Assembly (NCBI GenBank): GCA_013823725.1 | Contig: PNMQ01000006.1 | Location: 1,746 to 65,745, forward strand | DNA length: 64,000 nt | Direction: 5' to 3' | Origin: Candidatus Pelagibacter sp. | GTDB lineage: Bacteria > Pseudomonadota > Alphaproteobacteria > Paracaedibacterales > CAIOTO01 | Part shown: one piece after another, positions 3,172 through 40,827 of the stretch | Numbering within the stretch: position 1 is the stretch's first letter | Layout of the letters: each line of letters begins with the position of its first letter | Program-made: the position numbers and the translations under genes | The notes under the pieces: model-generated | Seen by the model: the letters and a program-made list of their open reading frames with translations, nothing else | Told to the model about the DNA's origin: nothing | Databases searched by the model: none

Positions 3172-3822
3172 TTAGTTTTTCTTTAAAATATAGTAACGTA
3201 TTTCACGATCATGCAGAAGCGCTTTCTGATGATATCGTGTTTGAACATATTCCTTCCAAGGAAGGAATGCTTCATCTTTGTTCACCCAAGTAAACAGTTC
3301 TTTTGTCATCTCTGAATTTAAAATTTCTTCAATCCAACTTTGATAAGAAGCATGATCCGTAGCTATTCGAAACTCGCCATTGTTTTTTAACAAACGATGT
3401 AAAGTGGGTAAATTATCTTGATGAAAAAATCGTCTTTTCCAATGCTTTTTTTTAGGCCAAGGATCTGGGAATAGTAGATATAAAACATCTAACACTTTAT
3501 CTTTCATACCGGCTATTAAAAATCGAGCATCACCATTGAGAATCGAAATATTTTCAACATTATGTTCCTCTATTTTTTGAAGCAAGTGAGCAACACCGTT
3601 TTCAAAAGGTTCACATCCTAAAAATAAGCACGAAGGATTATGAGTTGCTTGATGAAATATATGTTCACCACCACCAAAACCAATTTCCATAATTTTGGGT
3701 TCACTGCATTCTTTTAAAAAATTCTCACAAGAAAGTTTTGGGAGCAATGACTGCATTAAAATATTTTGTTCTTGTGTAAGCGATCCACACCGCCTTCTAC
3801 CATATAATCTTTGAGACGTCAT
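3172..3822 (-). CDS. trmB: tRNA (guanine-N7)-methyltransferase
   Basis: EIGFGGGEH SAM-binding motif plus the TrmB signature FPDPWPKKKHWKRRF. Confidence 0.92.
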   Translation of the reverse strand: MTSQRLYGRRRCGSLTQEQNILMQSLLPKLSCENFLKECSEPKIMEIGFGGGEHIFHQATHNPSCLFLGCEPFENGVAHLLQKIEEHNVENISILNGDARFLIAGMKDKVLDVLYLLFPDPWPKKKHWKRRFFHQDNLPTLHRLLKNNGEFRIATDHASYQSWIEEILNSEMTKELFTWVNKDEAFLPWKEYVQTRYHQKALLHDREIRYYILKKN

Positions 3823-3857
3823 TGAAAATAGACTTTAAAAAAATTTATCGTACAAAA

Positions 3858-3933
<76 letters not shown>

Positions 3934-4032
3934 ATTCGTTATAAACGATACTTAATAACATAGAAAAAAAACTACCACATTGCAATAAAAAAGGATAGCC
4001 TTAATATATAGACCTTTCATTAAATATTTTTC

Positions 4033-5166
4033 TTGAAAAACATTGATCTATTTCTAAAACCTTTCAACTTGCATAATGGTGCAGGTGAAATGCTTATCTA
4101 TAATCCTGTTTATAATGAAATAATAGAAGCCAGAAGAGAAGATGACCCTACCCTTTCACAAGGAATATGGAAACAAAAACCAAAAATTGCAGACTGGAAT
4201 AAAGCAGAGAATTTAACAACTGATATTTTAATAAACAAAAGCAAAGACCTTAGAGTCTTGGGCTGGTTGATTGAATCATGGGTCATGACACAAGGACTGC
4301 AAGGTCTTAATCAATCTTTAATTTTATTGCAAAAATTTTGCGAAACATTTTGGCCTGTTCTTTACCCCAATGCCTATTCTATTTTTGAAGAACTTAGGCC
4401 CGAAAAAGATGATAATGATTCTCTTTTTAACGAACAAACCATTCCATCGGATGAAACATTTGCCCTGTACGTAGCAGAACACAGAATAGCATTATTTGAA
4501 TGGATCGATTCAACTTTATCTCAAAGACTGCATACTCTTCCTCTGTTTCAAACAGAATCTGCATCGCATCTACATTTTATTTCTATAGCTGATTGGATAA
4601 AATATCAAGATGAATATCAATATAAAAAACGTCTTGGTTCTGAAGAACAAATAGATAACGATTTTGTGCAAAATATTACAAAAATACATATTAATGCGAT
4701 AACACAATTACAAGACATTTTGAATCTAAACGAAGATGCTTTAAAATCTTTAGAAAACACGTTATTGCATTTTGATTTGAACAAGATCGTTGAGTTTAAA
4801 AATATACACAATTTTATCCATCACGCAAGGTCAATGATTCATTTTTATTTCAAGAAAAACAACATACAACCCTTGGAAGAAAAATGTAATATCCCATCTA
4901 ATATCATGTCTGAATATACACCACCTATTCCTTCTTCTACAGATCATGCATCTTCCCCGCAAATAGTTAGCAACAGAGATGATGCGTATGTTGCGCTCAG
5001 TCAAATCAAAGATTTTCTAAATTCCATAGATCCTCATAGTCCATCATTAATGCTTTTAGACCTTGCCATTCAATGGCAAAATAAATCTTTTGTAGAAATT
5101 GTAGATGATATTCAAAATGGGAATTCAAGCACTCATGCCCTTTTACGCATTTTTAATAAAAATTAG
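4033..5166 (+). CDS. tssA: Type VI secretion TssA-like protein (ImpA_N domain plus conserved TssA C-terminal motif); apparent TTG start
   Basis: The N-terminus matches the ImpA_N pattern: EDDPTLSQGIWKQKPKIADWNKAENLTTDILINKSKDLRVLGWLIESW...FWPVLYP. The C-terminus carries the TssA-type DPHSPSLMLLDLAIQWQNKSFVEIV motif (compare EPHSPVPYLL..RA..W). Confidence 0.75.
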   Translation: MKNIDLFLKPFNLHNGAGEMLIYNPVYNEIIEARREDDPTLSQGIWKQKPKIADWNKAENLTTDILINKSKDLRVLGWLIESWVMTQGLQGLNQSLILLQKFCETFWPVLYPNAYSIFEELRPEKDDNDSLFNEQTIPSDETFALYVAEHRIALFEWIDSTLSQRLHTLPLFQTESASHLHFISIADWIKYQDEYQYKKRLGSEEQIDNDFVQNITKIHINAITQLQDILNLNEDALKSLENTLLHFDLNKIVEFKNIHNFIHHARSMIHFYFKKNNIQPLEEKCNIPSNIMSEYTPPIPSSTDHASSPQIVSNRDDAYVALSQIKDFLNSIDPHSPSLMLLDLAIQWQNKSFVEIVDDIQNGNSSTHALLRIFNKN

Positions 5167-19959: not shown

Positions 19960-21678
19960 TTACGACGATAAATATTTAAGAATACCTGCTTGAGGACTAC
20001 GCAATCCGCCATTATCAAGAATATGGCCTAGCAATAGATCTCTTGCACTTTCACTAGTTACAATTTCAGGTTTTTCGACAGCTAATCTTTCGTATAATGA
20101 TACATCACGAACCGTTCTAAGGTTACATCTCATATCCATTAGAACCTTTTTAACATCAGCTTCTGTTACAGGAACAAGATCTGGCGATTGCGAACGGCTA
20201 GATGATGCACTAGCTGCACCTGCACCTACGATACTACCAGCATTACTTGAAAATGAACCTGAAGCAACCGATCCAAATCTAGTTGATGACGAGACAGAGG
20301 ATGGAACGAGTGCCATATTACCAGAACCTGGAGCAACCGATCCTGATGCACTTGAAGACAACGCAGGGAATGGAGGTTCAATATTACCAGAACCGAATCT
20401 AACCGCAGGTGATGATGACATCTTATTTATATTTAGAGCCTGTTGTAACTGGTAAACTGCTTCATCATAACTAAGACGTCCATTTCTCCATTCGCGGAAA
20501 AAGGTATTCATTAGTCTATCACTAATCTTACCAACATTGGCAAGTGCTTGAATATTATTTGATATTGTGCTTCTGAATACTTGATCTGCAAAAGATTCAG
20601 GAACGTTAAAAATTATAGATAAAATACTCTTAGAATCCCATCGATTGTCTATGCTTCGATTTACAAATTCTTTTACCTTATTCAAATCGAAATTTTCTGC
20701 GTCAAAATTACGAATCGGTAATCCAATTGATGTGCTTGAACTATTCATGGGTGCTGCGTCTAATGATGCACAGTATGGGGAACCTGAAGATGTAGATCCA
20801 CGAACAGCGTCATCATAGAGTTTTCTAGCATTAACATAATCGTTTTTTAACAAAAGTTGGTATAATGGACCATAAAATTCTTCACCCTTACCAAGACGTG
20901 AAGCCACACCTTGTGACAATACATCTTTCATAAGAGTCGCATTGTTGGCATACGAGTCTACGTCTATTATAGATCCTGTATATTTGCGAAAATCTATTAA
21001 CTCCTTCGATACAGGATCTGAAACAGCTGATACATTTGGACTTTCAAAACCACCATTTAATGCTTGATCATCTGCTATTTTTTTGACTAACAGACCATGA
21101 ATATCCTTATACTCTTGTTGTGCTTTTTCTTCAGATACCGAAGCTGCCTTCTGAAGGAAACTTTCAACTTTAGCCCTATTCGACTTAGAAGAGGAAATAA
21201 GATTACTCATATGCGTGTCAAGTAGCATTTTCAAATCTTTTAAATTATTGGGAAGTGATCTCAACCCTAAATCTTCGGCTAATCTCAGCCAACTTTGGTA
21301 GATACTGACACCTGGCGCTACAGAAGAAAAATTACGATCCACCGCAGATGTAGAAGAAGGTCTAGATGTTGTTTGGTATGATAATTCATCATCTGAACTC
21401 CAAGCTTTATTGTCCTCTTCGCCATCAGAATCTTGCGCTTCTGGAGACATTGCTGCTGCACGGTTTAGCATGGCGTGACGAAATATTGCTTTATTAGTGG
21501 GTGCTGAATCAGCTAACGGTCTTTGATGAATTTTAGGTTTTAACTTAGATTGACTATCACTATTAATCTCTCCCAAAAAATTTGACTTATTTGCAGTAGG
21601 TTCATCTGCCATACTTATACCAAAGCTGACATCTGATAGAGCTGAAGTTAACAATAATAAAGATAAAATTTTTTTCAT
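19960..21678 (-). CDS. Hypothetical secreted protein, Ser/Gly/Ala-rich repeats near the C-terminus
   Basis: Signal peptide MKKILSLLLLTSALSDVSFG (the ATG at 21678 is preferred over 21690). Acidic/Ser-rich N-region, and repeated RFGS...S-rich segments encoded at about 20185-20425. No recognised domain. Confidence 0.6.
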   Translation of the reverse strand: MKKILSLLLLTSALSDVSFGISMADEPTANKSNFLGEINSDSQSKLKPKIHQRPLADSAPTNKAIFRHAMLNRAAAMSPEAQDSDGEEDNKAWSSDDELSYQTTSRPSSTSAVDRNFSSVAPGVSIYQSWLRLAEDLGLRSLPNNLKDLKMLLDTHMSNLISSSKSNRAKVESFLQKAASVSEEKAQQEYKDIHGLLVKKIADDQALNGGFESPNVSAVSDPVSKELIDFRKYTGSIIDVDSYANNATLMKDVLSQGVASRLGKGEEFYGPLYQLLLKNDYVNARKLYDDAVRGSTSSGSPYCASLDAAPMNSSSTSIGLPIRNFDAENFDLNKVKEFVNRSIDNRWDSKSILSIIFNVPESFADQVFRSTISNNIQALANVGKISDRLMNTFFREWRNGRLSYDEAVYQLQQALNINKMSSSPAVRFGSGNIEPPFPALSSSASGSVAPGSGNMALVPSSVSSSTRFGSVASGSFSSNAGSIVGAGAASASSSRSQSPDLVPVTEADVKKVLMDMRCNLRTVRDVSLYERLAVEKPEIVTSESARDLLLGHILDNGGLRSPQAGILKYLSS

Positions 21679-21894
21679 ACATTTCTCCAATTTAGAATAA
21701 TTACTTTTTTAAACACATGTTTATTTCTACTGTCGTAAAATATATTCTAAATTAGTGAAGAGTTAGTTAAATTTAATAAAAAAATTATATATTATTAATA
21801 TTATTTATAAAGATAAATTTTATATTTAACATCAATAAAACTATATTAGTCTGCTTTAATCCACATTCTTATGCCACAGCAATTACGACTGCAC

Positions 21895-32904: not shown

Positions 32905-35487
32905 TTAGATTAAGGATCTGATAAAGTCATGAACTGTTGGTAATTTTTGAATCTGATCCCCTCCTCCTTGTGCTAAATTGGGTTTACCCCCACCCCCTTT
33001 ACCACCGAAATATTCAACGAGTTTCTTCACTAAATCATTAGCATTATAGGATAATAAGGCTTGTTCACCTAGGCCCACACAAATCGAAACTTTACCTTCT
33101 TTTTCAGATAGCGCTACGAAAATTCCAAAAGACGCTTTTTTTTGGTATATTTCAACAACTGTTCTTAAATCTTTGGCTTCAATTTCTTTTTCATCAATAA
33201 CCATCAGTGTTGGCGATGTATTTTTTTTGATACTTTCTATTTCAACATTGTATTTATTTAACAAAACTTTGACTTTCAAGTCATCAAGCTGTTTTTGATG
33301 TAAAATATTTTGTTCTTTTATTTTTTGTTTTAACTGAACAATTTCTTCCTCACGCTGTTCGTAACGATTGAGGATACTTAAACCTGTAATAGCTTCAATT
33401 CGTCTAATACCTGACGCTATTCCTACTTCAGAAACTATTTTGAAAAGGCCAATTTGCCCACTAGACTGAACATGCGTACCACCACACAATTCGATAGAAA
33501 ATAATTGGCTCTGATCACCAAACGATACTACTCTTACTTCATCACCATATTTTTCCCCAAATAATGCCATCGCCCCTGACTCTATAGCTTGATCGGGTGT
33601 TGAAATTTCAGTAGAACACGTAATATTCTGTAAAATAATATCGTTTACTAATTTTTCAACATTTTGAATTTCAATTTCACTTAAAGGCTGAGTATGCGTA
33701 AAATCGAAACGTAAACGCGAAGATTCGACCAAAGATCCTTTTTGCATCACGTGATGACCCAAAATATTCCGTAATGCTGCATGCAATATATGAGTTGCAG
33801 AATGGTTTGCAGCAATCTGTGAACGTTCCTGAACATTGACGCTGCATTTTACAGATTGCTGAACGGACAATGATCCTGTTTCAATCTTGCCTGTATGCAA
33901 AAAGAGCGAACCTACTTTCTTTACATCAAAAATGTGTACCGATAAACCTTGTGCTTCGATCAATCCTTTATCTCCAACTTGCCCACCCGATTCAGCATAA
34001 AATGGTGTTTGGTTTAAAATAAGCTGAACTTCTTCACCAGTAGATACTGTATTCACACAAGCACCATCTTTAATAATAGCTAATACTAAAGCCTCTGATT
34101 TCAAATGGGCATAGCCCATAAATTCTGTTGAAGGAATACTTTGATTCAATTGTAAAATAAAAGAATCTTGTGCTTTTTCACCCGATCCAGACCATGCTTT
34201 GCGTGCTCTATCTTTTTGTTCTGTCATGCAGGTTGAAAAAGCATCCACATCTACAGATCTATTAGAATCTTTGAGAACATCTTGCGTTAAATCTAGGGGA
34301 AAACCATAGGTATCATATAATTTAAAGGCAAGATTACCAGGAAGCTTGTCTGTAGCACTTAAATTTGATACTTCTTCATTCAATAACTTCATACCACGGT
34401 CTAAGGTTTGTAAAAACCTTTCCTCTTCAAGTTGAAAAGTCTTCTGTATAAGATCTTTTGACGTCACAAGTTCTTTATAAGTATCGCCCATTAGGTTAAT
34501 GAAATGAGGAGCCATTTTTACTAGTAAAGGTTCTTTTGCCCCTAGTTTTTGTGCATGCCTTATTGCTCGACGCATAATCCGACGCAAAACGTATCCTCTT
34601 CCCTCGTTGGATGGTAAAATCCCTTCCGCTATCATCATGCTGCATGCACGTAGATGATCTGCTATTACGTTATGGGAAGGTTCAAATTCTTCCTTGTCAT
34701 TCTGTGTTAGTTCTTTTGATAGTTTCTTAATTTCAACAAAAAGGTCTGTATCATAATTACTGTTTTTACCTTGTAAAACGGATGCTATTCTTTCTAGTCC
34801 CATCCCTGTGTCGATCGATGGTTTTGGAAGCTTTAAACGTGTTCCATCAGATTGTTGATCAAATTGCATGAAAACGAGATTCCAAATTTCAACAAATCGA
34901 TCACCGTCTTGTTCAGCAGATCCAGGTAGTCCGCCCCAAATATGATCCCCATAGTCAAAAAATATTTCAGAACATGGCCCACATGGTCCGGTATCGCCCG
35001 CTGACCAAAAATTATCATTGGTTGAAATACGTATGATTTTTTCATCCGCAAAACCTGTAACTTTTTTCCAAATATTAAAAGCTTCATCATCGTTATGATA
35101 CACGGTAATCCACAAACGATTGGGATCTAGTTCATATTCTTTAGTAATAAGTTCATAAGCCATAGAAATGGCATCTTCTTTAAAATAATCGCCAAATGAA
35201 AAATTACCTAACATTTCAAAAAATGTATGATGACGTGCCGTATAGCCTACATTTTCAAGATCATTGTGTTTTCCACCCGCACGCAAACATTTTTGAGCCG
35301 TTGTAGCCCGCGTATATTTACGTTTATCAACACCTGTAAAAACATCTTTAAATTGCACCATACCGGCTGCTGTAAACATCAATGTCGGGTCGTTGGTTGG
35401 AATCAAAGAACTGGATGGAACGACGGTATGATTGTTTTTTTCAAAAAAATCGAGAAATGTTTTACGTATGTTGTTATAAGTTGTCAT
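32905..35487 (-). CDS. alaS: Alanyl-tRNA synthetase
   Basis: 860 aa with FTAAGMVQFKD, RAGGKHNDLENVG, the editing-domain HSATHILH...CGGTHV motifs, and a C-terminal GGKGGGGKPNLAQGGG. Confidence 0.97.
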   Translation of the reverse strand: MTTYNNIRKTFLDFFEKNNHTVVPSSSLIPTNDPTLMFTAAGMVQFKDVFTGVDKRKYTRATTAQKCLRAGGKHNDLENVGYTARHHTFFEMLGNFSFGDYFKEDAISMAYELITKEYELDPNRLWITVYHNDDEAFNIWKKVTGFADEKIIRISTNDNFWSAGDTGPCGPCSEIFFDYGDHIWGGLPGSAEQDGDRFVEIWNLVFMQFDQQSDGTRLKLPKPSIDTGMGLERIASVLQGKNSNYDTDLFVEIKKLSKELTQNDKEEFEPSHNVIADHLRACSMMIAEGILPSNEGRGYVLRRIMRRAIRHAQKLGAKEPLLVKMAPHFINLMGDTYKELVTSKDLIQKTFQLEEERFLQTLDRGMKLLNEEVSNLSATDKLPGNLAFKLYDTYGFPLDLTQDVLKDSNRSVDVDAFSTCMTEQKDRARKAWSGSGEKAQDSFILQLNQSIPSTEFMGYAHLKSEALVLAIIKDGACVNTVSTGEEVQLILNQTPFYAESGGQVGDKGLIEAQGLSVHIFDVKKVGSLFLHTGKIETGSLSVQQSVKCSVNVQERSQIAANHSATHILHAALRNILGHHVMQKGSLVESSRLRFDFTHTQPLSEIEIQNVEKLVNDIILQNITCSTEISTPDQAIESGAMALFGEKYGDEVRVVSFGDQSQLFSIELCGGTHVQSSGQIGLFKIVSEVGIASGIRRIEAITGLSILNRYEQREEEIVQLKQKIKEQNILHQKQLDDLKVKVLLNKYNVEIESIKKNTSPTLMVIDEKEIEAKDLRTVVEIYQKKASFGIFVALSEKEGKVSICVGLGEQALLSYNANDLVKKLVEYFGGKGGGGKPNLAQGGGDQIQKLPTVHDFIRSLI

Positions 35488-35660: not shown

Positions 35661-36464
35661 ATGAAAAAAGAAAATAATCATCAACAAGAAACCACCTCTT
35701 CTCTTATTCCATCAAACAACTCTGAAGAACTTAGAATTGCCAAATTTATTGCCCAAAGAACTGAATATTCAAGACGTGATGCAGAAGCGCTTGTACAACA
35801 AGGACGCGTTGTTGTTAATGGTGAAACACTTCATGAACTTGGACACAAGGTCAATCCTAACCAAGATCAAATTATGTTAGATGGCGTTTTATTGTCGTCT
35901 CAAAAACCCCGGACTAAAATATGGACTTTTTATAAACCACAAGGTTTAGTGACCACTCATAAAGACCCACAAAACCGAGAAACTGTTTTTGATTACCTTA
36001 AATCGAAAGGATTAAACCAAGCCATATCCATAGGACGATTAGATCTTAATTCGGAAGGCCTTTTGATTCTAACCAACAACAGTGAATTTTCTCACTATGC
36101 AGAATCTCCACAAACAGAATGGAAAAGATGCTACAAGGTTCGTGTTTTTGGAAAAAATATTCCTCTCGATAAATTATTAAACCTTAAAAAAGGTATTACA
36201 ATTGATAGCATTCACTACAAAGGTATCGATGTTGAATTACTTGATCATAAATCATTTGACCAATCATCTAATCAGTGGCTGTTGGTAACCTTAGTAGAAG
36301 GTAAAAACCGAGAAATTAGAAATGTCATGGAATATTTTGGTCTTCGAGTTAACCGACTTATCAGAGTATCCTACGGTCCCTTTGATCTGGGCGATTTAAG
36401 ACCAGGTGAAATCAAAAAAATTGACATCAAAAGCATACCTGAAATACAATCTATCGTTTTTTAA
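35661..36464 (+). CDS. rluB: Pseudouridine synthase, RsuA/RluB family (S4 domain plus catalytic domain)
   Basis: S4 domain (LRIAKFIAQRTEYSRRDAEALVQQGRVVVNGE) and the catalytic Asp motif GRLDLNSEGLLILTNN. EGKNREIR is also present. Confidence 0.85.
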   Translation: MKKENNHQQETTSSLIPSNNSEELRIAKFIAQRTEYSRRDAEALVQQGRVVVNGETLHELGHKVNPNQDQIMLDGVLLSSQKPRTKIWTFYKPQGLVTTHKDPQNRETVFDYLKSKGLNQAISIGRLDLNSEGLLILTNNSEFSHYAESPQTEWKRCYKVRVFGKNIPLDKLLNLKKGITIDSIHYKGIDVELLDHKSFDQSSNQWLLVTLVEGKNREIRNVMEYFGLRVNRLIRVSYGPFDLGDLRPGEIKKIDIKSIPEIQSIVF

Positions 36465-36573
36465 AATTTTAGAAAATCATTTAAATCACAATAATTTTAT
36501 ACTATAAATTAAGTAAATTTAAATATTTTATATTTATAAATAATATTTGTATATTATTATTTATGGATTTTCT

Positions 36574-36807
36574 ATGATTAAATTTATTCTAACACCCATT
36601 ATTGCGCTAACTTTTCAGTTATGGGCAGCTGACATTCCCATAGAATCTACTTCACATAATGAAGAAATAACAAGATCTTTACAAGATGTTTCTATAGAAG
36701 AAATACCTCAGTCACTTAGTCACTTAGTCACTCAGTCACTCAGTCACTCAGTCACTCAGTCACTCAGTCACTCAGTCACTCAGTCACTCAGTCACTCAGT
36801 CACTTGA
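36574..36807 (+). CDS. Short signal-peptide ORF that reads through the octanucleotide repeat and stops right after it (candidate OFF-phase 5' segment of a phase-variable gene)
   Basis: MIKFILTPIIALTFQLWA/ADI looks like a signal peptide. The ORF reads the repeat as (SLSHSVTQ)n and ends at a TGA at 36805-36807, the first codon after the tract. Confidence 0.5.
   Translation: MIKFILTPIIALTFQLWAADIPIESTSHNEEITRSLQDVSIEEIPQSLSHLVTQSLSHSVTQSLSHSVTQSLSHSVT
36709..36804. repeat. Tandem octanucleotide repeat: 12 units of 8 bp, made of CAGTCACT x1, TAGTCACT x2, then 9 perfect CAGTCACT (36733-36804)
   Basis: Counted directly in the sequence. The unit length is not a multiple of 3, and the perfect tract is open in all three forward frames. 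Confidence 0.95.
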
Positions 36808-36871
36808 AAGTTTAAGTTTATATAATTCCATACCTCAAGAAGTTTCTGCATTTTCTTCTGAATATGCCACC

Positions 36872-37528
36872 ATGGATACCGTATTTGAGAGAGTCATTGG
36901 ATTGGGTTCAGATTGCGCTACAAAACGCGGCATTAATTTATTTTTTACACCAAGTCAACCATGGCTAAAAACAAAAAAAGGACATTCTGACCTTTTTGAT
37001 TGGTTAATAATAAAAGATTATCGTTTATTAGCTGATGCCTTTTTTCGTAATCTTGATGATTTTTTCGAACTTCAAGATTTCATATTTCCTGGAACCCCTA
37101 TTAATTCAAAATATAACATGGATTGGTGTCATTTAGGACATAAACTTGATAACAATGGGGATTGGAATCGCCAAGAAACTACAATGAAAACACATGATGA
37201 CTTTATAAGACTTTTTGATGATACAAAAAATAAAATTGAATATTTGAAAAAAAAATTTATTAATTCACAAGATAAAAATGCTATTTATATAATCACTGAA
37301 GATAAAAGATGGAATAAAGAAATTGACTTAAGCACACTAATTTACTTAAGAGACTCAATTACTCACATAAGAAATGGCAATAAAAATTTTTGTCTTGTGC
37401 TATCAAGCGAGAATCCTAAATTCGAAAGTTTTGAAAATATTCTTGTTATCCACTCATTATCACCATGGAATGGAAACTACGTTAACATTTTATCTAATTT
37501 TAAATTCACATCCAATATTTGGGCCTAA
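36872..37528 (+). CDS. DUF1796-like protein (putative papain-like cysteine peptidase family); 3' segment of the candidate phase-variable gene
   Basis: N-terminal VIGLGSDCATKRG ... SDLFDWLI ... FFRNLDDFFE resembles my recollection of the DUF1796 signature (sLGsnC...PFDW...F.dFl). Its reading frame stays open upstream back into the repeat tract. Confidence 0.55.
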   Translation: MDTVFERVIGLGSDCATKRGINLFFTPSQPWLKTKKGHSDLFDWLIIKDYRLLADAFFRNLDDFFELQDFIFPGTPINSKYNMDWCHLGHKLDNNGDWNRQETTMKTHDDFIRLFDDTKNKIEYLKKKFINSQDKNAIYIITEDKRWNKEIDLSTLIYLRDSITHIRNGNKNFCLVLSSENPKFESFENILVIHSLSPWNGNYVNILSNFKFTSNIWA

Positions 37529-37617
37529 AATTAATTTTACTAGCTTAAAAGAATTCGGGATAGATTGGCATAACCTATATCTTTTATCCAATAAATAGTT
37601 TGAAAAAGAAGTATAGG

Positions 37618-40600
37618 TTATGTTCGTCTAGATCCAATATATTTCACATACGTGTAATCTAATTTATTCAAAGGTCCGTGGCTATGATCTCTCAAAATAA
37701 TAGCATCTGAACTTTGATGAATATCTTTCTTTTGTTGATAGCACATACATGCATAAATAGGTTGATCAGAACCTTCTTTATAATAAACACAACGACTACA
37801 AATCCCTTTAGACATGCATTGTACAGGGTTAAAAACACTATAATCTACCGTTAATTTATTTGAACTTCTGGATATTTTTTTTAGTTCATCCATGACAAGA
37901 GTATTCAAATCATTTGATCCATGAATTTTCCACTGAATAACATCTTTTACCTTTTCAGAAATATCTTTAAGGGTGTCCTTTAATTTATCCAAAGAACAAA
38001 GCGTATAATCTTTTCCCTCTATGGCAGAAGGAATATAATTAATTTTAAAGGTATCAAAAACAGTTTGATCATGTTCTGATTGAATATAAACAACTAAAAA
38101 AACCTTACAATTTTTTAAAATAAGCTGTTCCCTATACATCACTAGAGTACTTAATGTTTGAGGTAACGCCACCAAAACAACGTTTTGATTTTCATACAAC
38201 TCAAATAAATCTCCAGATGGCCCCGTTAATGACACTTGCTCATGAACCCGTAGATTGTTCATGGAGTATGAAGATGCACCTGCTTGATGAATCAGAAAGG
38301 TTAAGGTCCTGCCATCAACTTTTAATGGTGACAAAGCTACACCTTCTGAATAGGGTGTTTTTTCTGCTTTATTATTTATAAAATATCGATTTAATTTATA
38401 AATAAATCCTGGTCTGTAAGCCTGTGCTTGAAGAGATGCATGAATTGTGACCTCTAACCAGTGATCAAACCTCACAATTTTTTGAACATAAATTTCAGTC
38501 AAATTTTTCCACTGAGTTAAAAAGTTGCCATTTTCTAACAAGTTAGAATCTTGAAAAGCATTTTGTTTTAAAGAATCAAGGATATAGGGATAACCCTTTT
38601 TAGCACTAGCCATAGCCTTTACAACGCTACCATGATAACGGGAATTCAAATCCCCAAAACAACTTATCTTATTTTGGAACTTTGCATTTTTAACGTTTAA
38701 GAGAGGATTATCTAAATCACCATCGTCCATTGTTTTTAAATAACTATTTTCAATGATCAAACAATCTTCATCATGAGCAATGGAAACATTAGGTTTAAGA
38801 CCTGTTCCTAACAACAATGTCTTACATGCCAAGGTTCTTTCTGTCGTTTGAATCTGTGCAATACATCCCTTTTCGTCCGAATGGATATCTGCTAGTTCTT
38901 CATCATAGATAACTTTAATCCCCTCGTTCAATGCTGCCTTTAACTCCTCCACGTTAATCCTATACGCTGGAGATTGTATAATGTCTTTGCGATATAATAA
39001 CGTCACACCTCCCCATTGATCTATCAAAGAATGAATCTTTTCAAGGTTTTGCTGAACGTCTACTTTATCAATTTCACAAGCGTGTGCAAGATAGGTATCT
39101 GCTAATTCATTTTCTTGGGCTGTCCAATCTTGTCTTATTTCATGATCAGACAAACTTATTTTCAGCGCATCATAGCGATGTTTGAATTTTAAAACTTGTT
39201 GTACATAAAAAGATCGGGCTTCAACAGCGCAATCAACAGCTGTCAACCCTCCCCCCAAAACCACAATAGGAAGCTCTAATTTAAACTGAAACAATGATTG
39301 CAAATGGTAAGCCGCACCTAAATGAAGAGTCATCAAAAAATCCGTGGCAAAATGCACACCAGCAATTTTCATCCAATCTGGTTTAAGACCCTTTGAAAGA
39401 CCTGCACCTAAACATAAGGCAACATGATCAAACCCCAATGAAAATGCTTTTTCAAAACCTAATGCCCCGCCAAAACGAATACCCCCTATTAGTAAAAATG
39501 AAGAGTTACGTTGTAAAATGATACGAATCAAATCAAGATAATTTTTATTCCACCGTGACGTAATACCGTATTCACAAACTCCTCCAAATCCTTGGGGAAT
39601 TCGCTGATACATGCTTTTTTGCATACTGTTCCAGGAATACATAACTTTAAAATCATCTGAAAAAATATCTATCCAGCCATTTTCAAGTGGTTCTATTTTT
39701 GCTGTATCAATAGCCACAACGGTAATGCCTTCACGCAACAAATAGTGGGCTAATGTAAATCCAGCAGGTCCAGTACCTACAACTAATACTTTGTTTCCTG
39801 TTGCGGCTTTAGGCAATGGATTTTCAATATTTAAAGGATTCCATCGTGTTAAAAGACTATATATTTCTGGTCCATAGGGTAAGTTAAGAACAGATTCCAA
39901 AATTTGCGTTTCAATTCCAGGAACATCAACTTGTGTTTGCTTTTGAAAGATACACGCTTGTTTGCAATCGACACAAATACGATGTCCCGTTCCTGCAATA
40001 AGCGGATTATCAATCATCGCTATTGCTAAAGCAGCGATAAAATGGCCTTTGCTAAACAATAAATTCATTTCTGAAATTTTTTGATCCAACGGACACCCTT
40101 CTAGTTTGGCACCCAAAGAATTTTCTTTAACATCACCAGATGAGCTCTTCAAACCAGTACGACACGAATCTTTTTTTTGGGGGTGACAATGAATGCAATA
40201 CGATGCTTGGTTAATTTCATATTCAACAGATGGAAGATCGTTTTTCAATGTGTATTCAAGCGGACTCTTTTCAAGAACTAAACTTTCAACCTGATGGTGT
40301 GTAAAAGTAAAATCCTTTAAAAGGTCTAAAGAATTGACTGGTTCACTCTTCCAAAAAAGTGTCGTTTGATCGTTTTTTTTTTCAAATAGTTGAACTTGAT
40401 ACGCACAAAATAATTCGGCTTGTTCAATTTTTTCAGCAAATTCTTCTACATTTTCTAGCCAGTCAAAAATCTGTTTTGCACATTCATATTCGTCTAATGA
40501 ATCAAAAGGATTTAATGGTGAATTTTTAATGATTGTTTGTTTGTACTTTGTTAGAACTCTTTTTTGAATAAAGTTTTTTCTAACCCATGAAATACAACTA

Positions 40601-40827
40601 ATCTTACTGATAGTTTTTCTGTGAGTTAACACTTCCTTTTCATTAAGAAATAAAAGCGCCATAAAATCTTCAAGATAAACAGCCTGTTCTAAGATTTTTT
40701 TTTGAAAAATATCTGATGACGTATTTATTGATGAAGAATTACAAAATAATAGAAAAATCGAATGTAATTTTTCTAATTTAGATTGGTCGTATAAATCACG
40801 AATACTAAAATCGAAACGAAGGTTCAC
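37618..40827 (-). CDS. Large fused iron-sulfur flavoprotein: unknown N-terminal domain, then a GltD/NfnB-like NAD(P)H oxidoreductase, then a PyrK/NfnA-like FAD/2Fe-2S reductase domain
   Basis: GltD-like Cys clusters (CIHCHPQKKDSC, EGCPLDQKISEMN, GHRICVDCKQACIF) and two Rossmann motifs (KVLVVGTGPAGFTLA, VVLGGGLTAVDCAVEA). The C-terminal FNR-like module has GPSG and the PyrK-type cluster CMSKGICSRCV...YAC. Confidence 0.8.
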   Translation of the reverse strand: MNLRFDFSIRDLYDQSKLEKLHSIFLLFCNSSSINTSSDIFQKKILEQAVYLEDFMALLFLNEKEVLTHRKTISKISCISWVRKNFIQKRVLTKYKQTIIKNSPLNPFDSLDEYECAKQIFDWLENVEEFAEKIEQAELFCAYQVQLFEKKNDQTTLFWKSEPVNSLDLLKDFTFTHHQVESLVLEKSPLEYTLKNDLPSVEYEINQASYCIHCHPQKKDSCRTGLKSSSGDVKENSLGAKLEGCPLDQKISEMNLLFSKGHFIAALAIAMIDNPLIAGTGHRICVDCKQACIFQKQTQVDVPGIETQILESVLNLPYGPEIYSLLTRWNPLNIENPLPKAATGNKVLVVGTGPAGFTLAHYLLREGITVVAIDTAKIEPLENGWIDIFSDDFKVMYSWNSMQKSMYQRIPQGFGGVCEYGITSRWNKNYLDLIRIILQRNSSFLLIGGIRFGGALGFEKAFSLGFDHVALCLGAGLSKGLKPDWMKIAGVHFATDFLMTLHLGAAYHLQSLFQFKLELPIVVLGGGLTAVDCAVEARSFYVQQVLKFKHRYDALKISLSDHEIRQDWTAQENELADTYLAHACEIDKVDVQQNLEKIHSLIDQWGGVTLLYRKDIIQSPAYRINVEELKAALNEGIKVIYDEELADIHSDEKGCIAQIQTTERTLACKTLLLGTGLKPNVSIAHDEDCLIIENSYLKTMDDGDLDNPLLNVKNAKFQNKISCFGDLNSRYHGSVVKAMASAKKGYPYILDSLKQNAFQDSNLLENGNFLTQWKNLTEIYVQKIVRFDHWLEVTIHASLQAQAYRPGFIYKLNRYFINNKAEKTPYSEGVALSPLKVDGRTLTFLIHQAGASSYSMNNLRVHEQVSLTGPSGDLFELYENQNVVLVALPQTLSTLVMYREQLILKNCKVFLVVYIQSEHDQTVFDTFKINYIPSAIEGKDYTLCSLDKLKDTLKDISEKVKDVIQWKIHGSNDLNTLVMDELKKISRSSNKLTVDYSVFNPVQCMSKGICSRCVYYKEGSDQPIYACMCYQQKKDIHQSSDAIILRDHSHGPLNKLDYTYVKYIGSRRT

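What the first reader, a model, noticed from the sequence alone, without database searches (positions are those of the whole stretch)
36574..37528. Octanucleotide (CAGTCACT)n tract placed to act as a slipped-strand ON/OFF switch that fuses a signal peptide to a downstream 218-aa domain
Seen directly: a 96-bp tract of 8-bp units (36709-36804). It has 9 perfect CAGTCACT units preceded by 3 units, two of which are the variant TAGTCACT. A signal-peptide ORF (ATG 36574, MIKFILTPIIALTFQLWA/AD) reads through the tract in frame 1 as (SLSHSVTQ)n. It hits TGA at 36805-36807, the first codon after the tract. I translated the frame of the downstream ORF (ATG 36872, frame 2) backwards codon by codon. It has no stop between 36728 and 36872 and reads ...VTQSLESLSLYNSIPQEVSAFSSEYATMDTV. 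Because the unit is 8 bp (2 mod 3), gaining one unit or losing two would join both ORFs into one secreted protein of about 325 aa. Losing one unit gives TTG AAA GTT TAA, a stop within four codons. So one register in three is ON, and this sequence is in an OFF register. The perfect tract is open in all three frames, as expected for a contingency repeat. The degenerate leading units look like the decayed edge of an actively slipping array. Octanucleotide contingency repeats are uncommon, and phase variation is rarely described in reduced host-associated alphaproteobacteria.
Basis: partly seen in the sequence, partly recalled or inferred. Interest (0 to 1): 0.78.

Follow-up and report, generated by a model that had tools for sequence, protein, structure and literature searches.

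The report
Octamer repeat splitting a secreted-protein gene
A 12-copy run of an 8-base unit has grown inside the gene for a secreted protein and pushed its export signal out of frame with the rest of the protein. The break could be undone by gaining or losing repeat copies, but nothing available here shows that such switching happens.

Summary
(YAGTCACT)12 lies at 36709-36804, and nine of the units are perfect. An ORF that starts with a signal-peptide-like sequence ends at TGA 36805. The 218-aa ORF's frame is open back to 36728. Ten or 13 units in total would fuse the two ORFs.

Comparative data support a single ancestral gene:
- All close homologues (275-302 aa) are single proteins with a signal peptide, a variable linker and the domain.
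- The conserved motif EYATMDTVFERV begins upstream of ATG 36872.
- The syntenic gene in a sister genome (AlaRS 91% identical) has one octamer unit and one continuous frame.

So the array arose after the split from that genome. It added 88 bp, which shifts the frame by one base.

The anatomy therefore matches a classic slipped-strand translational switch, such as Neisseria opa. Actual switching is not shown:
- No second strain is available.
- The only other assembly breaks inside the repeat.
- No homologue carries a repeat in its linker.
- The window holds no other comparable repeat.
- The sister copy is dead, with two nonsense codons, and the gene is absent from more distant relatives.

Gene decay is therefore a serious rival. 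The domain is a distant DUF1796 relative whose closest predicted folds are giant-virus proteins.

Verdict: a real feature and a candidate new member of a known kind, of moderate interest.

The parts
36574..36807 (+). Upstream half of the split gene. It encodes a signal-peptide-like N-terminus and the linker, reads through the repeat as (SLSHSVTQ)n, and ends at TGA 36805-36807 (77 aa).
   Evidence: Its N-terminus is similar to that of homologue P0005 (tblastn 43.5% identity, E 2e-4) and to the sister orthologue MIKFILPLIIALSFKLWAVDIP.
36574..36627 (+). Putative Sec signal peptide, MIKFILTPIIALTFQLWA, with cleavage predicted before ADIP.
   Evidence: Read directly from the sequence: a Lys near the N-terminus, a hydrophobic core with a 12-residue Kyte-Doolittle mean of 2.16, and a WA|A(D/E) motif shared with the homologues. 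SignalP was not available.
36709..36804 (+). Octanucleotide tandem array of 12 units (96 bp). Eleven units (88 bp) are extra relative to the single unit in the sister genome, which gives a +1 frame change.
   Evidence: TRF score 182, period 8, 12.2 copies; scripts; DNA alignment to the sister locus L137.
36709..36732 (+). Three leading units: CAGTCACT, TAGTCACT, TAGTCACT. The TAG codons of units 2 and 3 close the two frames other than that of the signal-peptide ORF.
   Evidence: The sister's single unit reads TAGTCACT because the base before it changed from C to T.
36733..36804 (+). Nine perfect CAGTCACT units with no stop in any + strand frame. This is the part expected to slip.
   Evidence: regular-expression search and three-frame translation.
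36806..36871 (+). The rest of the linker, read in the domain's frame: ESLSLYNSIPQEVSAFSSEYAT. It is coding sequence that the frameshift has cut off from a start codon.
   Evidence: This stretch is 82% identical in DNA to the sister. The conserved EYAT motif aligns with all homologues. In the sister it lies in frame with the signal peptide.
36872..37528 (+). The 218-aa ORF for a DUF1796-like domain. NCBI annotates it as a hypothetical protein (MBA4249817.1 and MBA4283608.1).
   Evidence: It keeps all 11 near-invariant family residues. The AF2 model has pLDDT 91.7. Its closest predicted folds are giant-virus DUF1796 proteins. Eleven of 102 family members match PF08795.
35661..36464 (+). Upstream neighbour, a pseudouridine synthase (RluB/RsuA-like). 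It anchors the synteny comparison.
   Evidence: Pfam S4 and PseudoU_synth_2 hits. It is 90.3% identical in amino acids to the sister gene.
37618..40827 (-). Downstream convergent neighbour, a 1069-aa Pyr_redox_2 oxidoreductase. It anchors the synteny comparison.
   Evidence: It is 83.8% identical in amino acids to the sister gene. In the more distant relatives it lies directly against the pseudouridine synthase gene.

Best explanation
This is one gene for a secreted DUF1796-like protein, made of a signal peptide, a flexible linker and a roughly 220-aa domain.

An octamer in the linker-coding region was present once in the ancestor, in the sequence CCT CAGTCACT TGAAAG. It has been amplified by replication slippage to 12 tandem units. 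The added 88 bp shifts the frame by +1. Ribosomes that start at the signal-peptide ATG therefore stop at TGA 36805, and the domain is left without its export signal. In this assembly the gene is OFF.

The array has nine perfect 8-bp units, and 8 is not a multiple of 3. Slipped-strand mispairing that gains one unit or loses two would restore a 320-aa or 312-aa secreted protein. The locus should therefore behave as a reversible translational ON/OFF switch, in which one register in three is ON.

What is shown: the repeat, the frames, the one-gene ancestry and the post-divergence origin of the array. What is inferred: that the array slips at an appreciable rate, that ON alleles coexist in the population, and that the switching is useful rather than incidental.
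For: - **Anatomy and register arithmetic:**
- **One-gene architecture in all close homologues.** Conserved residues lie upstream of the internal ATG.
- **The sister orthologue has exactly one unit** and a single frame from the signal peptide to the domain. This fixes the ON register at 1, 4, 7, 10 or 13 units.
- **Both halves are otherwise intact.** The domain keeps all 11 near-invariant family residues. It also stays slightly closer than the sister copy to 9 of 10 outgroups. The 240 codons downstream of the repeat have no stop, although the DNA is only 30% G+C. The frameshift is therefore either recent or repeatedly reversed.
- **The linker tolerates length changes.** It varies widely in length among homologues, so an extra (SLSHSVTQ)n segment should be tolerated.
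- **The tract is perfect over 72 bp**, whereas neutral sites in neighbouring genes have diverged by 20-30% since the split from the sister. The array has therefore been homogenised recently.
- **There is a direct precedent.** The CTCTT repeats in the leader-peptide coding region of Neisseria opa switch at about 1e-3 per generation (PMC3960869).
Against: - **No length heterogeneity could be observed.** The only other assembly of this strain breaks inside the repeat. No other strain was found in the 15-billion-protein collection or in JGI metagenome contigs.
- **Both NCBI records call the 218-aa ORF**, so both are in an OFF register.
- **The repeat is unique to this gene and genome.** None of 12 homologue loci has one, and the 64-kb window has no second such repeat. 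Genomes that rely on contingency loci usually have several.
- **The gene looks dispensable.** The sister orthologue has two nonsense codons and an adjacent IS fragment. The gene is absent from relatives with 84% AlaRS identity. An intact paralogue, P0002, exists in the same MAG.
- **The unit count in a short-read MAG assembly may be wrong.**
Confidence: 0.5

Rival explanations
1. Gene decay. The repeat expansion is simply the mutation that killed a dispensable accessory gene. The array arose and drifted neutrally. The OFF register is in effect permanent, and the gene will accumulate further lesions as its sister copy already has. No selected switching is involved.
For: - The sister orthologue is a pseudogene. 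It has a TAG in the octamer and a TGA at the invariant Leu of the W-x-H-L motif, and IS or transposase fragments lie next to it.
- The gene is absent at this locus in L138 and L139.
- An intact paralogue, P0002, exists in the same MAG.
- No other homologue has a repeat in its linker.
- Both NCBI records are in an OFF register.
- Slippage-driven gene inactivation has been documented in symbionts (PMC4948707).
Against: - Apart from the frameshift, neither half of the window's gene has any lesion.
- All near-invariant residues are kept.
- 240 codons stay open in AT-rich DNA.
- The frameshift sits in a tract that is itself expected to revert at a high rate. 'Permanent' inactivation is therefore mechanistically unlikely until a second lesion arises.
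Confidence: 0.3
2. Assembly miscount. The true array has 10 or 13 units, or the population is mostly ON. The assembler mis-resolved a 96-bp tandem repeat, so the split is an artefact and the gene is simply intact.
For: - The window comes from a metagenome-assembled genome.
- Tandem repeats close to read or k-mer length are commonly mis-sized.
- An independent k=31 assembly cannot cross the repeat at all.
- Everything other than the count looks like a working gene.
Against: - A 96-bp tract fits inside a single 150-nt read, so most modern assemblers size it correctly.
- Two NCBI protein records (MBA4249817.1 and MBA4283608.1) both call the 218-aa ORF rather than a roughly 320-aa one. Whether the two assemblies are independent is unknown.
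Confidence: 0.12
3. Recoding or independent expression. Either ribosomes shift +1 at ACT-TGA-A at the end of the tract, as in prfB, to make the full protein from this DNA. Or the 218-aa ORF is translated on its own from ATG 36872 as a cytosolic protein.
For: - A +1 shift at ACT TGA would read A CTT GAA AGT, giving LES..., which is exactly the domain frame.
- A few distant family members (P0050, P0058) start at the domain and lack a signal peptide.
Against: - A tRNA-Thr on ACU cannot re-pair with CUU, and no Shine-Dalgarno-like stimulator lies upstream.
- ATG 36872 has no Shine-Dalgarno sequence (+0.4 kcal/mol). Its position is occupied by M, L or I within a conserved motif in the homologues, so it is not a conserved start.
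- All homologues with more than 40% identity have a signal peptide.
- There is no Rfam element and no significant structure in the array.
Confidence: 0.05

Closest known systems
Neisseria opa genes: (CTCTT)n in the leader-peptide coding region, a translational phase-variation switch
   Same: - A tandem repeat whose unit is not a multiple of 3 lies in the 5' coding region of a gene for an exported protein, at or just after the signal peptide.
- The repeat number sets the frame, so one register in three is ON.
- The OFF state gives a short truncated leader peptide (PMC3960869).
   Different: - The unit is 8 bp rather than 5 bp.
- The repeat lies after the predicted cleavage site, in the linker, not inside the leader.
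- It is a single locus, not a family of about 11 genes that all carry repeats.
- No repeat-number variation among strains has been seen.
- The repeat is absent (one unit) in the sister genome.
Haemophilus influenzae tetranucleotide contingency loci (lic1 and others), and the octanucleotide GCATCATC repeats upstream of hmw in biogroup aegyptius
   Same: - The mechanism is slipped-strand mispairing of a perfect array.
- An octanucleotide unit with 12-15 copies has a precedent (PMC3309571).
- Surveys of phase-variable genes list octanucleotide tracts among the accepted repeat classes (PMC7383803).
   Different: - The hmw octamers lie in the promoter region and act on transcription, whereas this array is intragenic and acts on translation.
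- The Haemophilus loci show documented copy-number differences between strains. No such difference is available here.
Slippage-driven gene inactivation in recently host-restricted symbionts (Candidatus Sodalis pierantonius)
   Same: - Repeat-mediated polymerase slippage disrupts reading frames in genes that are no longer needed (PMC4948707).
- The lineage here also shows decay at this locus. The sister copy is a pseudogene with an IS fragment beside it.
   Different: - In Sodalis the events are mostly deletions between short direct repeats.
- Here the event is an expansion to a long perfect array, and such an array is inherently reversible.
DUF1796 (PF08795), 'putative papain-like cysteine peptidase'
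   Same: - Eleven of 102 family members match the Pfam model, the best at E 6.6e-8.
- The confident AF2 model (pLDDT 91.7) matches giant-virus proteins annotated as papain-like cysteine peptidases, with E 6e-6 and TM 0.55-0.68.
- The G-x-x-C and W-x-H motifs are nearly invariant.
   Different: - The window protein itself does not match PF08795 even at E <= 1.
- No solved structure resembles the model, including papain-fold enzymes (Foldseek against PDB, best E 0.15).
- The 'papain-like peptidase' label is therefore unverified.

Membership tests
SSR-mediated translational phase-variable (contingency) locus | A perfect tandem repeat whose unit is not a multiple of 3, lying inside the coding region | tested here: met
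   Nine perfect CAGTCACT units plus three flanking variant units at 36709-36804, inside the signal-peptide ORF.
SSR-mediated translational phase-variable (contingency) locus | Changing the unit number switches between a full-length protein and a truncated one | tested here: met
   In silico, 7, 10 or 13 perfect units give 312, 320 or 328 aa, and 8 or 9 units give truncation. The full-length form matches the homologues and the sister gene's frame.
SSR-mediated translational phase-variable (contingency) locus | Repeat number varies within a population or between closely related strains | not testable with these tools
   The only other assembly of the strain (Logan SRR22387913) breaks at 36755 and 36775. 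No other strain was found in the protein collection or in JGI contigs.
SSR-mediated translational phase-variable (contingency) locus | The repeat persists at the locus in relatives, or similar repeats occur in other genes of the genome | tested here: not met
   The sister orthologue has 1 unit. None of 12 homologue loci has a repeat in its linker. The 64-kb window has no other tandem repeat of short unit and comparable score. The rest of the genome was not available.
Pseudogene | The reading frame is disrupted relative to intact orthologues or homologues | tested here: met
   A +88-bp insertion splits the ORF.
Pseudogene | Further signs of relaxed constraint, such as additional stops or frameshifts or loss of conserved residues | tested here: not met
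   There is no other lesion, and all 11 near-invariant family residues are kept. The sister copy, by contrast, has two nonsense codons.
DUF1796 (PF08795) | A match to the Pfam model at or above its gathering score | tested here: not met
   The window protein gives no hit at E <= 1. Distant family members do match: 11 of 102, best E 6.6e-8.
DUF1796 (PF08795) | A fold shared with proteins annotated as DUF1796 or papain-like peptidase | tested here: met
   Foldseek against BFVD finds seven Mimiviridae-type 'papain-like cysteine peptidase' proteins at E 5.8e-6 to 2.9e-3 and TM up to 0.68. The search against PDB finds none.
Sec-type (SPase I) signal peptide | A positively charged n-region, a hydrophobic h-region, and small residues at -1 and -3 before the cleavage site | tested here: inconclusive
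   MIK / FILTPIIALTFQLW / A|AD, with a 12-residue Kyte-Doolittle mean of 2.16. A similar WA|A(E/D) motif occurs in the homologues. No dedicated predictor was run.
prfB-type programmed +1 frameshift | A slippery P-site codon whose tRNA can re-pair in the +1 frame, a poor stop-codon context, and an upstream Shine-Dalgarno-like stimulator | tested here: not met
   The site is ACT TGA A. The shift from ACU to CUU does not allow re-pairing, and no Shine-Dalgarno-like sequence lies upstream.

The most novel reading that the evidence does not exclude
This is a contingency locus caught at its birth. In an amoeba-symbiont-like alphaproteobacterium related to Paracaedibacteraceae, a single-copy octamer in the linker of a recently acquired secreted effector has grown into a 12-unit array since the split from the sister species. 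The effector is DUF1796-like, and its relatives are found in giant viruses. The array now toggles the protein between a secreted form (ON) and either no protein or a cytosolic form made from the internal ATG (OFF). This would give the symbiont population heritable, reversible heterogeneity in a host-interaction factor. The same locus also turns over by recombination: the domain body is only 44% identical to the sister's, while the flanks are 78-93% identical.
Probability: 0.2. Interest if true: 0.6.

Novelty: new member of a known kind. Interest (0 to 1): 0.36.

Why it matters
**If switching is real.** This would extend repeat-driven phase variation to the Holosporales/Paracaedibacter-like intracellular alphaproteobacteria. 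Two literature searches found no such report for that group. It would also be a dated example of how such a switch originates: one unit in the sister genome and 12 here.

**If it is decay.** It is a clean example of a repeat expansion inactivating an accessory secreted-protein gene while its sister copy died through nonsense mutations.

**Annotation.** In either case the current annotation, a stand-alone 218-aa hypothetical protein, is wrong. The coding region starts at 36574.

**A separate by-product.** This DUF1796-like family has about 160 clusters at 50% identity. It has a confidently predicted fold with no solved relative, and its closest predicted folds are in giant viruses.

Tried and rejected
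- **Same locus in other samples.** An exact 32-mer across the 3' edge of the repeat found nothing in JGI metagenome contigs. The 218-aa protein is not on record in any other assembly. The Logan contigs of SRR22387913 match the window exactly but stop inside the repeat.
- **Scan of 185,579 species genomes for (CAGTCACT)3.** It returned more than 119 loci in unrelated phyla.
- **Repeats in homologue loci.** TRF on 12 loci found no repeat within the linker.
- **Function of the domain.**
  - Pfam, NCBIfam and PDB sequence searches with the window protein gave nothing.
  - A profile search against PDB gave nothing significant.
  - Foldseek against PDB gave nothing for either model.
- **Hairpin-promoted slippage.** The array folds weakly as single-stranded DNA (-5.9 kcal/mol, z -1.06), so this idea was dropped.
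- **RNA element.** There were no Rfam matches in 36000-38000.
- **Shine-Dalgarno analysis of the two start codons.** Shine-Dalgarno use is weak across this genome: 27% of genes against 16% of background ATGs. The analysis is therefore not informative.
- **Promoter scan.** The number of hits equals the number expected from shuffled sequence.
- **Relative-rate comparison.** The window is slightly closer than the sister to 9 of 10 outgroups. The comparison is confounded, because the two domain bodies are not simple orthologues.
Full report
**1.

- TRF reports one array at 36707-36804 with period 8, 12.2 copies, 97% matches and score 182. That is the top score among 38 rows for the window.
- A script places 12 YAGTCACT units at 36709-36804. 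They are CAGTCACT, TAGTCACT, TAGTCACT and then nine perfect CAGTCACT units at 36733-36804.
- The ORF from ATG 36574 reads the tract as (SLSHSVTQ)n and stops at TGA 36805-36807.
- The frame of ATG 36872 (218 aa, ending at 37528) is open back to 36728.
- In silico, 7, 10 or 13 perfect units give one ORF of 312, 320 or 328 aa. Eight or nine units give truncated products.
- Two Logan contigs from run SRR22387913 match the window with no mismatches and end at 36755 and start at 36775. This is what a k=31 assembler does at such a repeat. The tract and both of its edges are thus confirmed in a second assembly, but the unit count cannot be read from it.

**2. The two ORFs are halves of one gene**

- A search of 5.8 billion protein clusters found the 218-aa ORF itself, annotated by NCBI as a hypothetical protein of a MAG labelled Candidatus Puniceispirillum sp. 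It also found five homologues of 275-302 aa at 42-48% identity.
- All five homologues have a hydrophobic N-terminus with a WA|A(E/D)-type end, a linker of variable length and sequence, and then the domain.
- The conserved block EYA(T/N)(M/L/I)DTVFERVIGLG begins three residues upstream of the window's ATG 36872. The Met codon sits at a position that is M, L or I in the homologues. ATG 36872 is therefore an internal codon and not a conserved start.
- In the alignment the repeat appears as an insertion of about 34 residues within the variable linker.

**3. A sister genome dates the repeat and fixes the ON register**

- The window's AlaRS clusters with a protein from GCA_964415115.1. Its contig, L137, is syntenic. 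Amino-acid identity to the window is 90.8% for AlaRS, 90.3% for the pseudouridine synthase and 83.8% for the 1069-aa oxidoreductase. DNA identity is 85-89%, and third codon positions are 70-79% identical.
- The orthologue lies between the same two neighbours (L137 about 3792-4640, minus strand). Read from its signal-peptide ATG, it is a single frame all the way to the final stop. Two nonsense codons interrupt it: MIKFILPLIIALSFKLWAVDIPVESGSNNTRYNVSLEKTP*SLESLSLSDTLSQEISASSSEYAAMDTVLERV...WHH*FDT...FKFTPDIWQ.
- At the site of the array the sister has one unit, CCT TAGTCACT TGAAAG. Its TAG is the first nonsense codon, equivalent to the window's CAG. The second is TGA at the invariant Leu of the W-x-H-L motif, equivalent to TTA.
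- IS or transposase fragments lie between this gene and the pseudouridine synthase gene.

Three conclusions follow.
- (a) With one unit, the signal peptide and the domain are in frame. The ON registers are therefore 1, 4, 7, 10 or 13 total units, and the window's 12 units are OFF.
- (b) The array grew from a single pre-existing octamer after the two lineages split.
- (c) The sister copy is a pseudogene.

Read in the phase AGTCACTN, the window's units run T, T, C x9, T. The T-type unit equals the ancestral AGTCACT|T, so the edge units look like the oldest copies and the C-type unit is the one that expanded.

**4. The locus is accessory and turns over quickly**

- In two more distant relatives (AlaRS 84% identical; L138 and L139), the oxidoreductase and pseudouridine synthase genes abut with nothing between them. 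tblastn with 18 family members finds no relative in either locus.
- Between the window and the sister, the signal peptide, linker and 3' flank are 78-93% identical in DNA over most 60-nt windows. The domain body is only about 50-65% identical in DNA and 43.6% in amino acids.
- That is well below the 70-79% identity of third codon positions in the neighbouring genes. Neutral decay alone cannot account for it.
- The sister's domain is closer to an unrelated family member, P0018 (51%), than to the window's domain.
- One of the two domain bodies was therefore most likely replaced by recombination with a different family member.
- An intact paralogue, P0002, lies elsewhere in the same MAG, and P0005 is its orthologue in the sister genome.

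**5. What the protein is**

- The window protein matches no Pfam or NCBIfam model and no PDB sequence.
- An exhaustive profile search found 162 cluster representatives at 50% identity. Most are 250-310 aa with an N-terminal extension, and a few start directly at the domain.
- Eleven of 102 aligned members match PF08795 (DUF1796, 'putative papain-like cysteine peptidase'), the best at E 6.6e-8.
- The residues G34, C37, F64, D65, W66, H109, K143, L147, Y161, R189 and F195 are nearly invariant in the family. The window protein keeps all of them.
- With the deep alignment, AlphaFold2 gives pLDDT 91.7 and pTM 0.88.
- Foldseek finds no neighbour in the PDB (best E 0.15). It does find seven giant-virus proteins annotated as papain-like cysteine peptidases, from Catovirus, Moumouvirus, Bodo saltans virus, ChoanoV1, Yasminevirus and Megavirus. 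These score E 5.8e-6 to 2.9e-3 with TM up to 0.68.
- The biochemical function remains unknown.
- The nearest named relatives by AlaRS are Candidatus Paracaedibacteraceae and Paracaedibacter symbiosus at 53-57% identity. That fits an organism associated with protists. The NCBI labels (Puniceispirillum, Pelagibacter) look unreliable.

**6. How it most likely works**

- Shown: a linker octamer expanded by 11 units (88 bp, a +1 frame change) and cut the export signal off from the domain.
- Inferred from established knowledge of slipped-strand mispairing: a 72-bp perfect array with a unit that is not a multiple of 3 will gain and lose units at a high rate. The break should therefore be reversible, with +1 unit or -2 units restoring the frame. 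This anatomy is the same as Neisseria opa, where CTCTT repeats in the leader-coding region switch at about 1e-3 per generation (PMC3960869).
- In favour of a live or recently live gene:
  - neither half has any other lesion;
  - all conserved residues are kept;
  - the tract is perfect, although neutral sites have diverged by 20-30% since the split from the sister.

**7. Why the switch reading is only partly supported**

- No repeat-length variation could be examined.
- Both NCBI protein records call the 218-aa ORF, so both are in an OFF register.
- None of 12 homologue loci has a repeat in its linker, and the window has no second repeat of this kind.
- The sister copy is dead and the gene is dispensable in relatives.
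- Slippage-driven gene loss is known in symbionts (PMC4948707).
- A short-read MAG assembly may have the unit count wrong.

My weights are as follows.

| Explanation | Weight |
|---|---|
| Reversible OFF state of a hypermutable locus | about 0.5 |
| Plain decay | about 0.3 |
| Assembly miscount | about 0.12 |
| Recoding or independent expression of the 218-aa ORF | about 0.05 |

Against the last explanation: the ACT TGA A site lacks the features of a prfB-type shift, and ATG 36872 has no Shine-Dalgarno sequence and is not a conserved start.

**8. Comparison with what is known, and verdict**

- Repeat-driven translational phase variation is textbook biology. Octanucleotide units are unusual but have precedents: GCATCATC x12-15 upstream of hmw in H. 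influenzae biogroup aegyptius (PMC3309571), and their inclusion in surveys of phase-variable genes (PMC7383803).
- Two literature searches found no report of this kind of switching in Rickettsiales-like or Wolbachia-like endosymbionts.
- The finding is a real feature and a candidate new member of a known kind. Its added value is that the repeat's birth can be dated against a sister genome.
- Interest is moderate, about 0.36. The key defining feature, variation in repeat number, has not been tested.

Noticed in passing
window 36900-37500 compared with L137 3800-4440: The domain body is only 43.6% identical in amino acids (about 50-65% in DNA) between the window and the sister genome. The signal peptide, linker, 3' flank and neighbouring genes are 78-93% identical. 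The locus is a mosaic, which implies that the domain was replaced by recombination with another family member. The sister's domain is closer to P0018 (51%).
   Followed up: partly
L137 4717-5835: In the sister genome, transposase (DDE_Tnp_1_2) and IS-like ORF fragments lie between the dead orthologue and the pseudouridine synthase gene. The window has no such insertion.
   Followed up: no
L138 7009-7012; L139 7008-7011: In relatives with 84% AlaRS identity, the oxidoreductase and pseudouridine synthase genes overlap by 4 bp with no gene between them. The DUF1796-like gene is therefore an accessory insertion specific to the clade of the window and its sister.
   Followed up: yes
window 36872-37528 (model mda4df1e00675): The domain has a confident AlphaFold2 model (pLDDT 91.7) with no Foldseek neighbour in the PDB. 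Its only structural matches are giant-virus (Mimiviridae-type) proteins annotated as papain-like cysteine peptidases (DUF1796). This suggests a gene family shared between protist-associated bacteria and giant viruses.
   Followed up: partly
L010-L128 (genome-contig hits for the octamer): The same CAGTCACT octamer forms arrays of 3-19 units at many loci in single unrelated genomes. Examples are 15 or more loci in Chitinispirillaceae MAG JAFGIN01, 8 or more in Hymenobacteraceae MAG JANPLI01, 8 or more in Syntrophomonadaceae MAG CAZLTH01, and long mixed CAGT/CACT arrays in Metamycoplasmataceae MAG CBDHHR01. Most lie in short open stretches, probably intergenic.
   Followed up: partly
L004 5949-5980; L132 50-78; L008 2468-2487: Hexamer repeats lie near the genes of some homologues. 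(ATAATT)5.3 ends 20 nt upstream of the P0006 gene. (ATACTT) occurs at 4.8 copies in L132 and 3.3 copies in L008. These could be promoter-spacing repeats.
   Followed up: no
L008 1-134 and 4956-5010: The 5,010-bp contig that carries homologue P0003 has the same 22-bp repeat (TATCCCCCCCAAAGGTCCGTGA) at both ends. It also carries an RPA replication gene and a PhdYeFM antitoxin gene. It is probably a small circular plasmid with iterons, so some family members are plasmid-borne.
   Followed up: no
window 32905-35487 (AlaRS) and the NCBI record names: Identical proteins from this organism are filed at NCBI under both Candidatus Puniceispirillum sp. and Candidatus Pelagibacter sp. The 34% G+C content and the nearest named AlaRS relatives (Paracaedibacteraceae, 53-57%) suggest that both labels are wrong.
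   Followed up: partly
window 20255-20394: A 69-bp tandem repeat (2.1 copies, 77% matches, TRF score 155) lies inside the 576-aa ORF at 19960-21690 on the minus strand. The unit is a multiple of 3, so it encodes an in-frame 23-aa protein repeat.
   Followed up: no
L003 5962-6001 and 8273-8312: The same 21-bp direct repeat (TTAAATTGAGGATTATTTACC, 1.9 copies) lies immediately upstream of the P0004 gene and of another gene 2.3 kb downstream. It may be a shared regulatory or translation-initiation motif.
   Followed up: no
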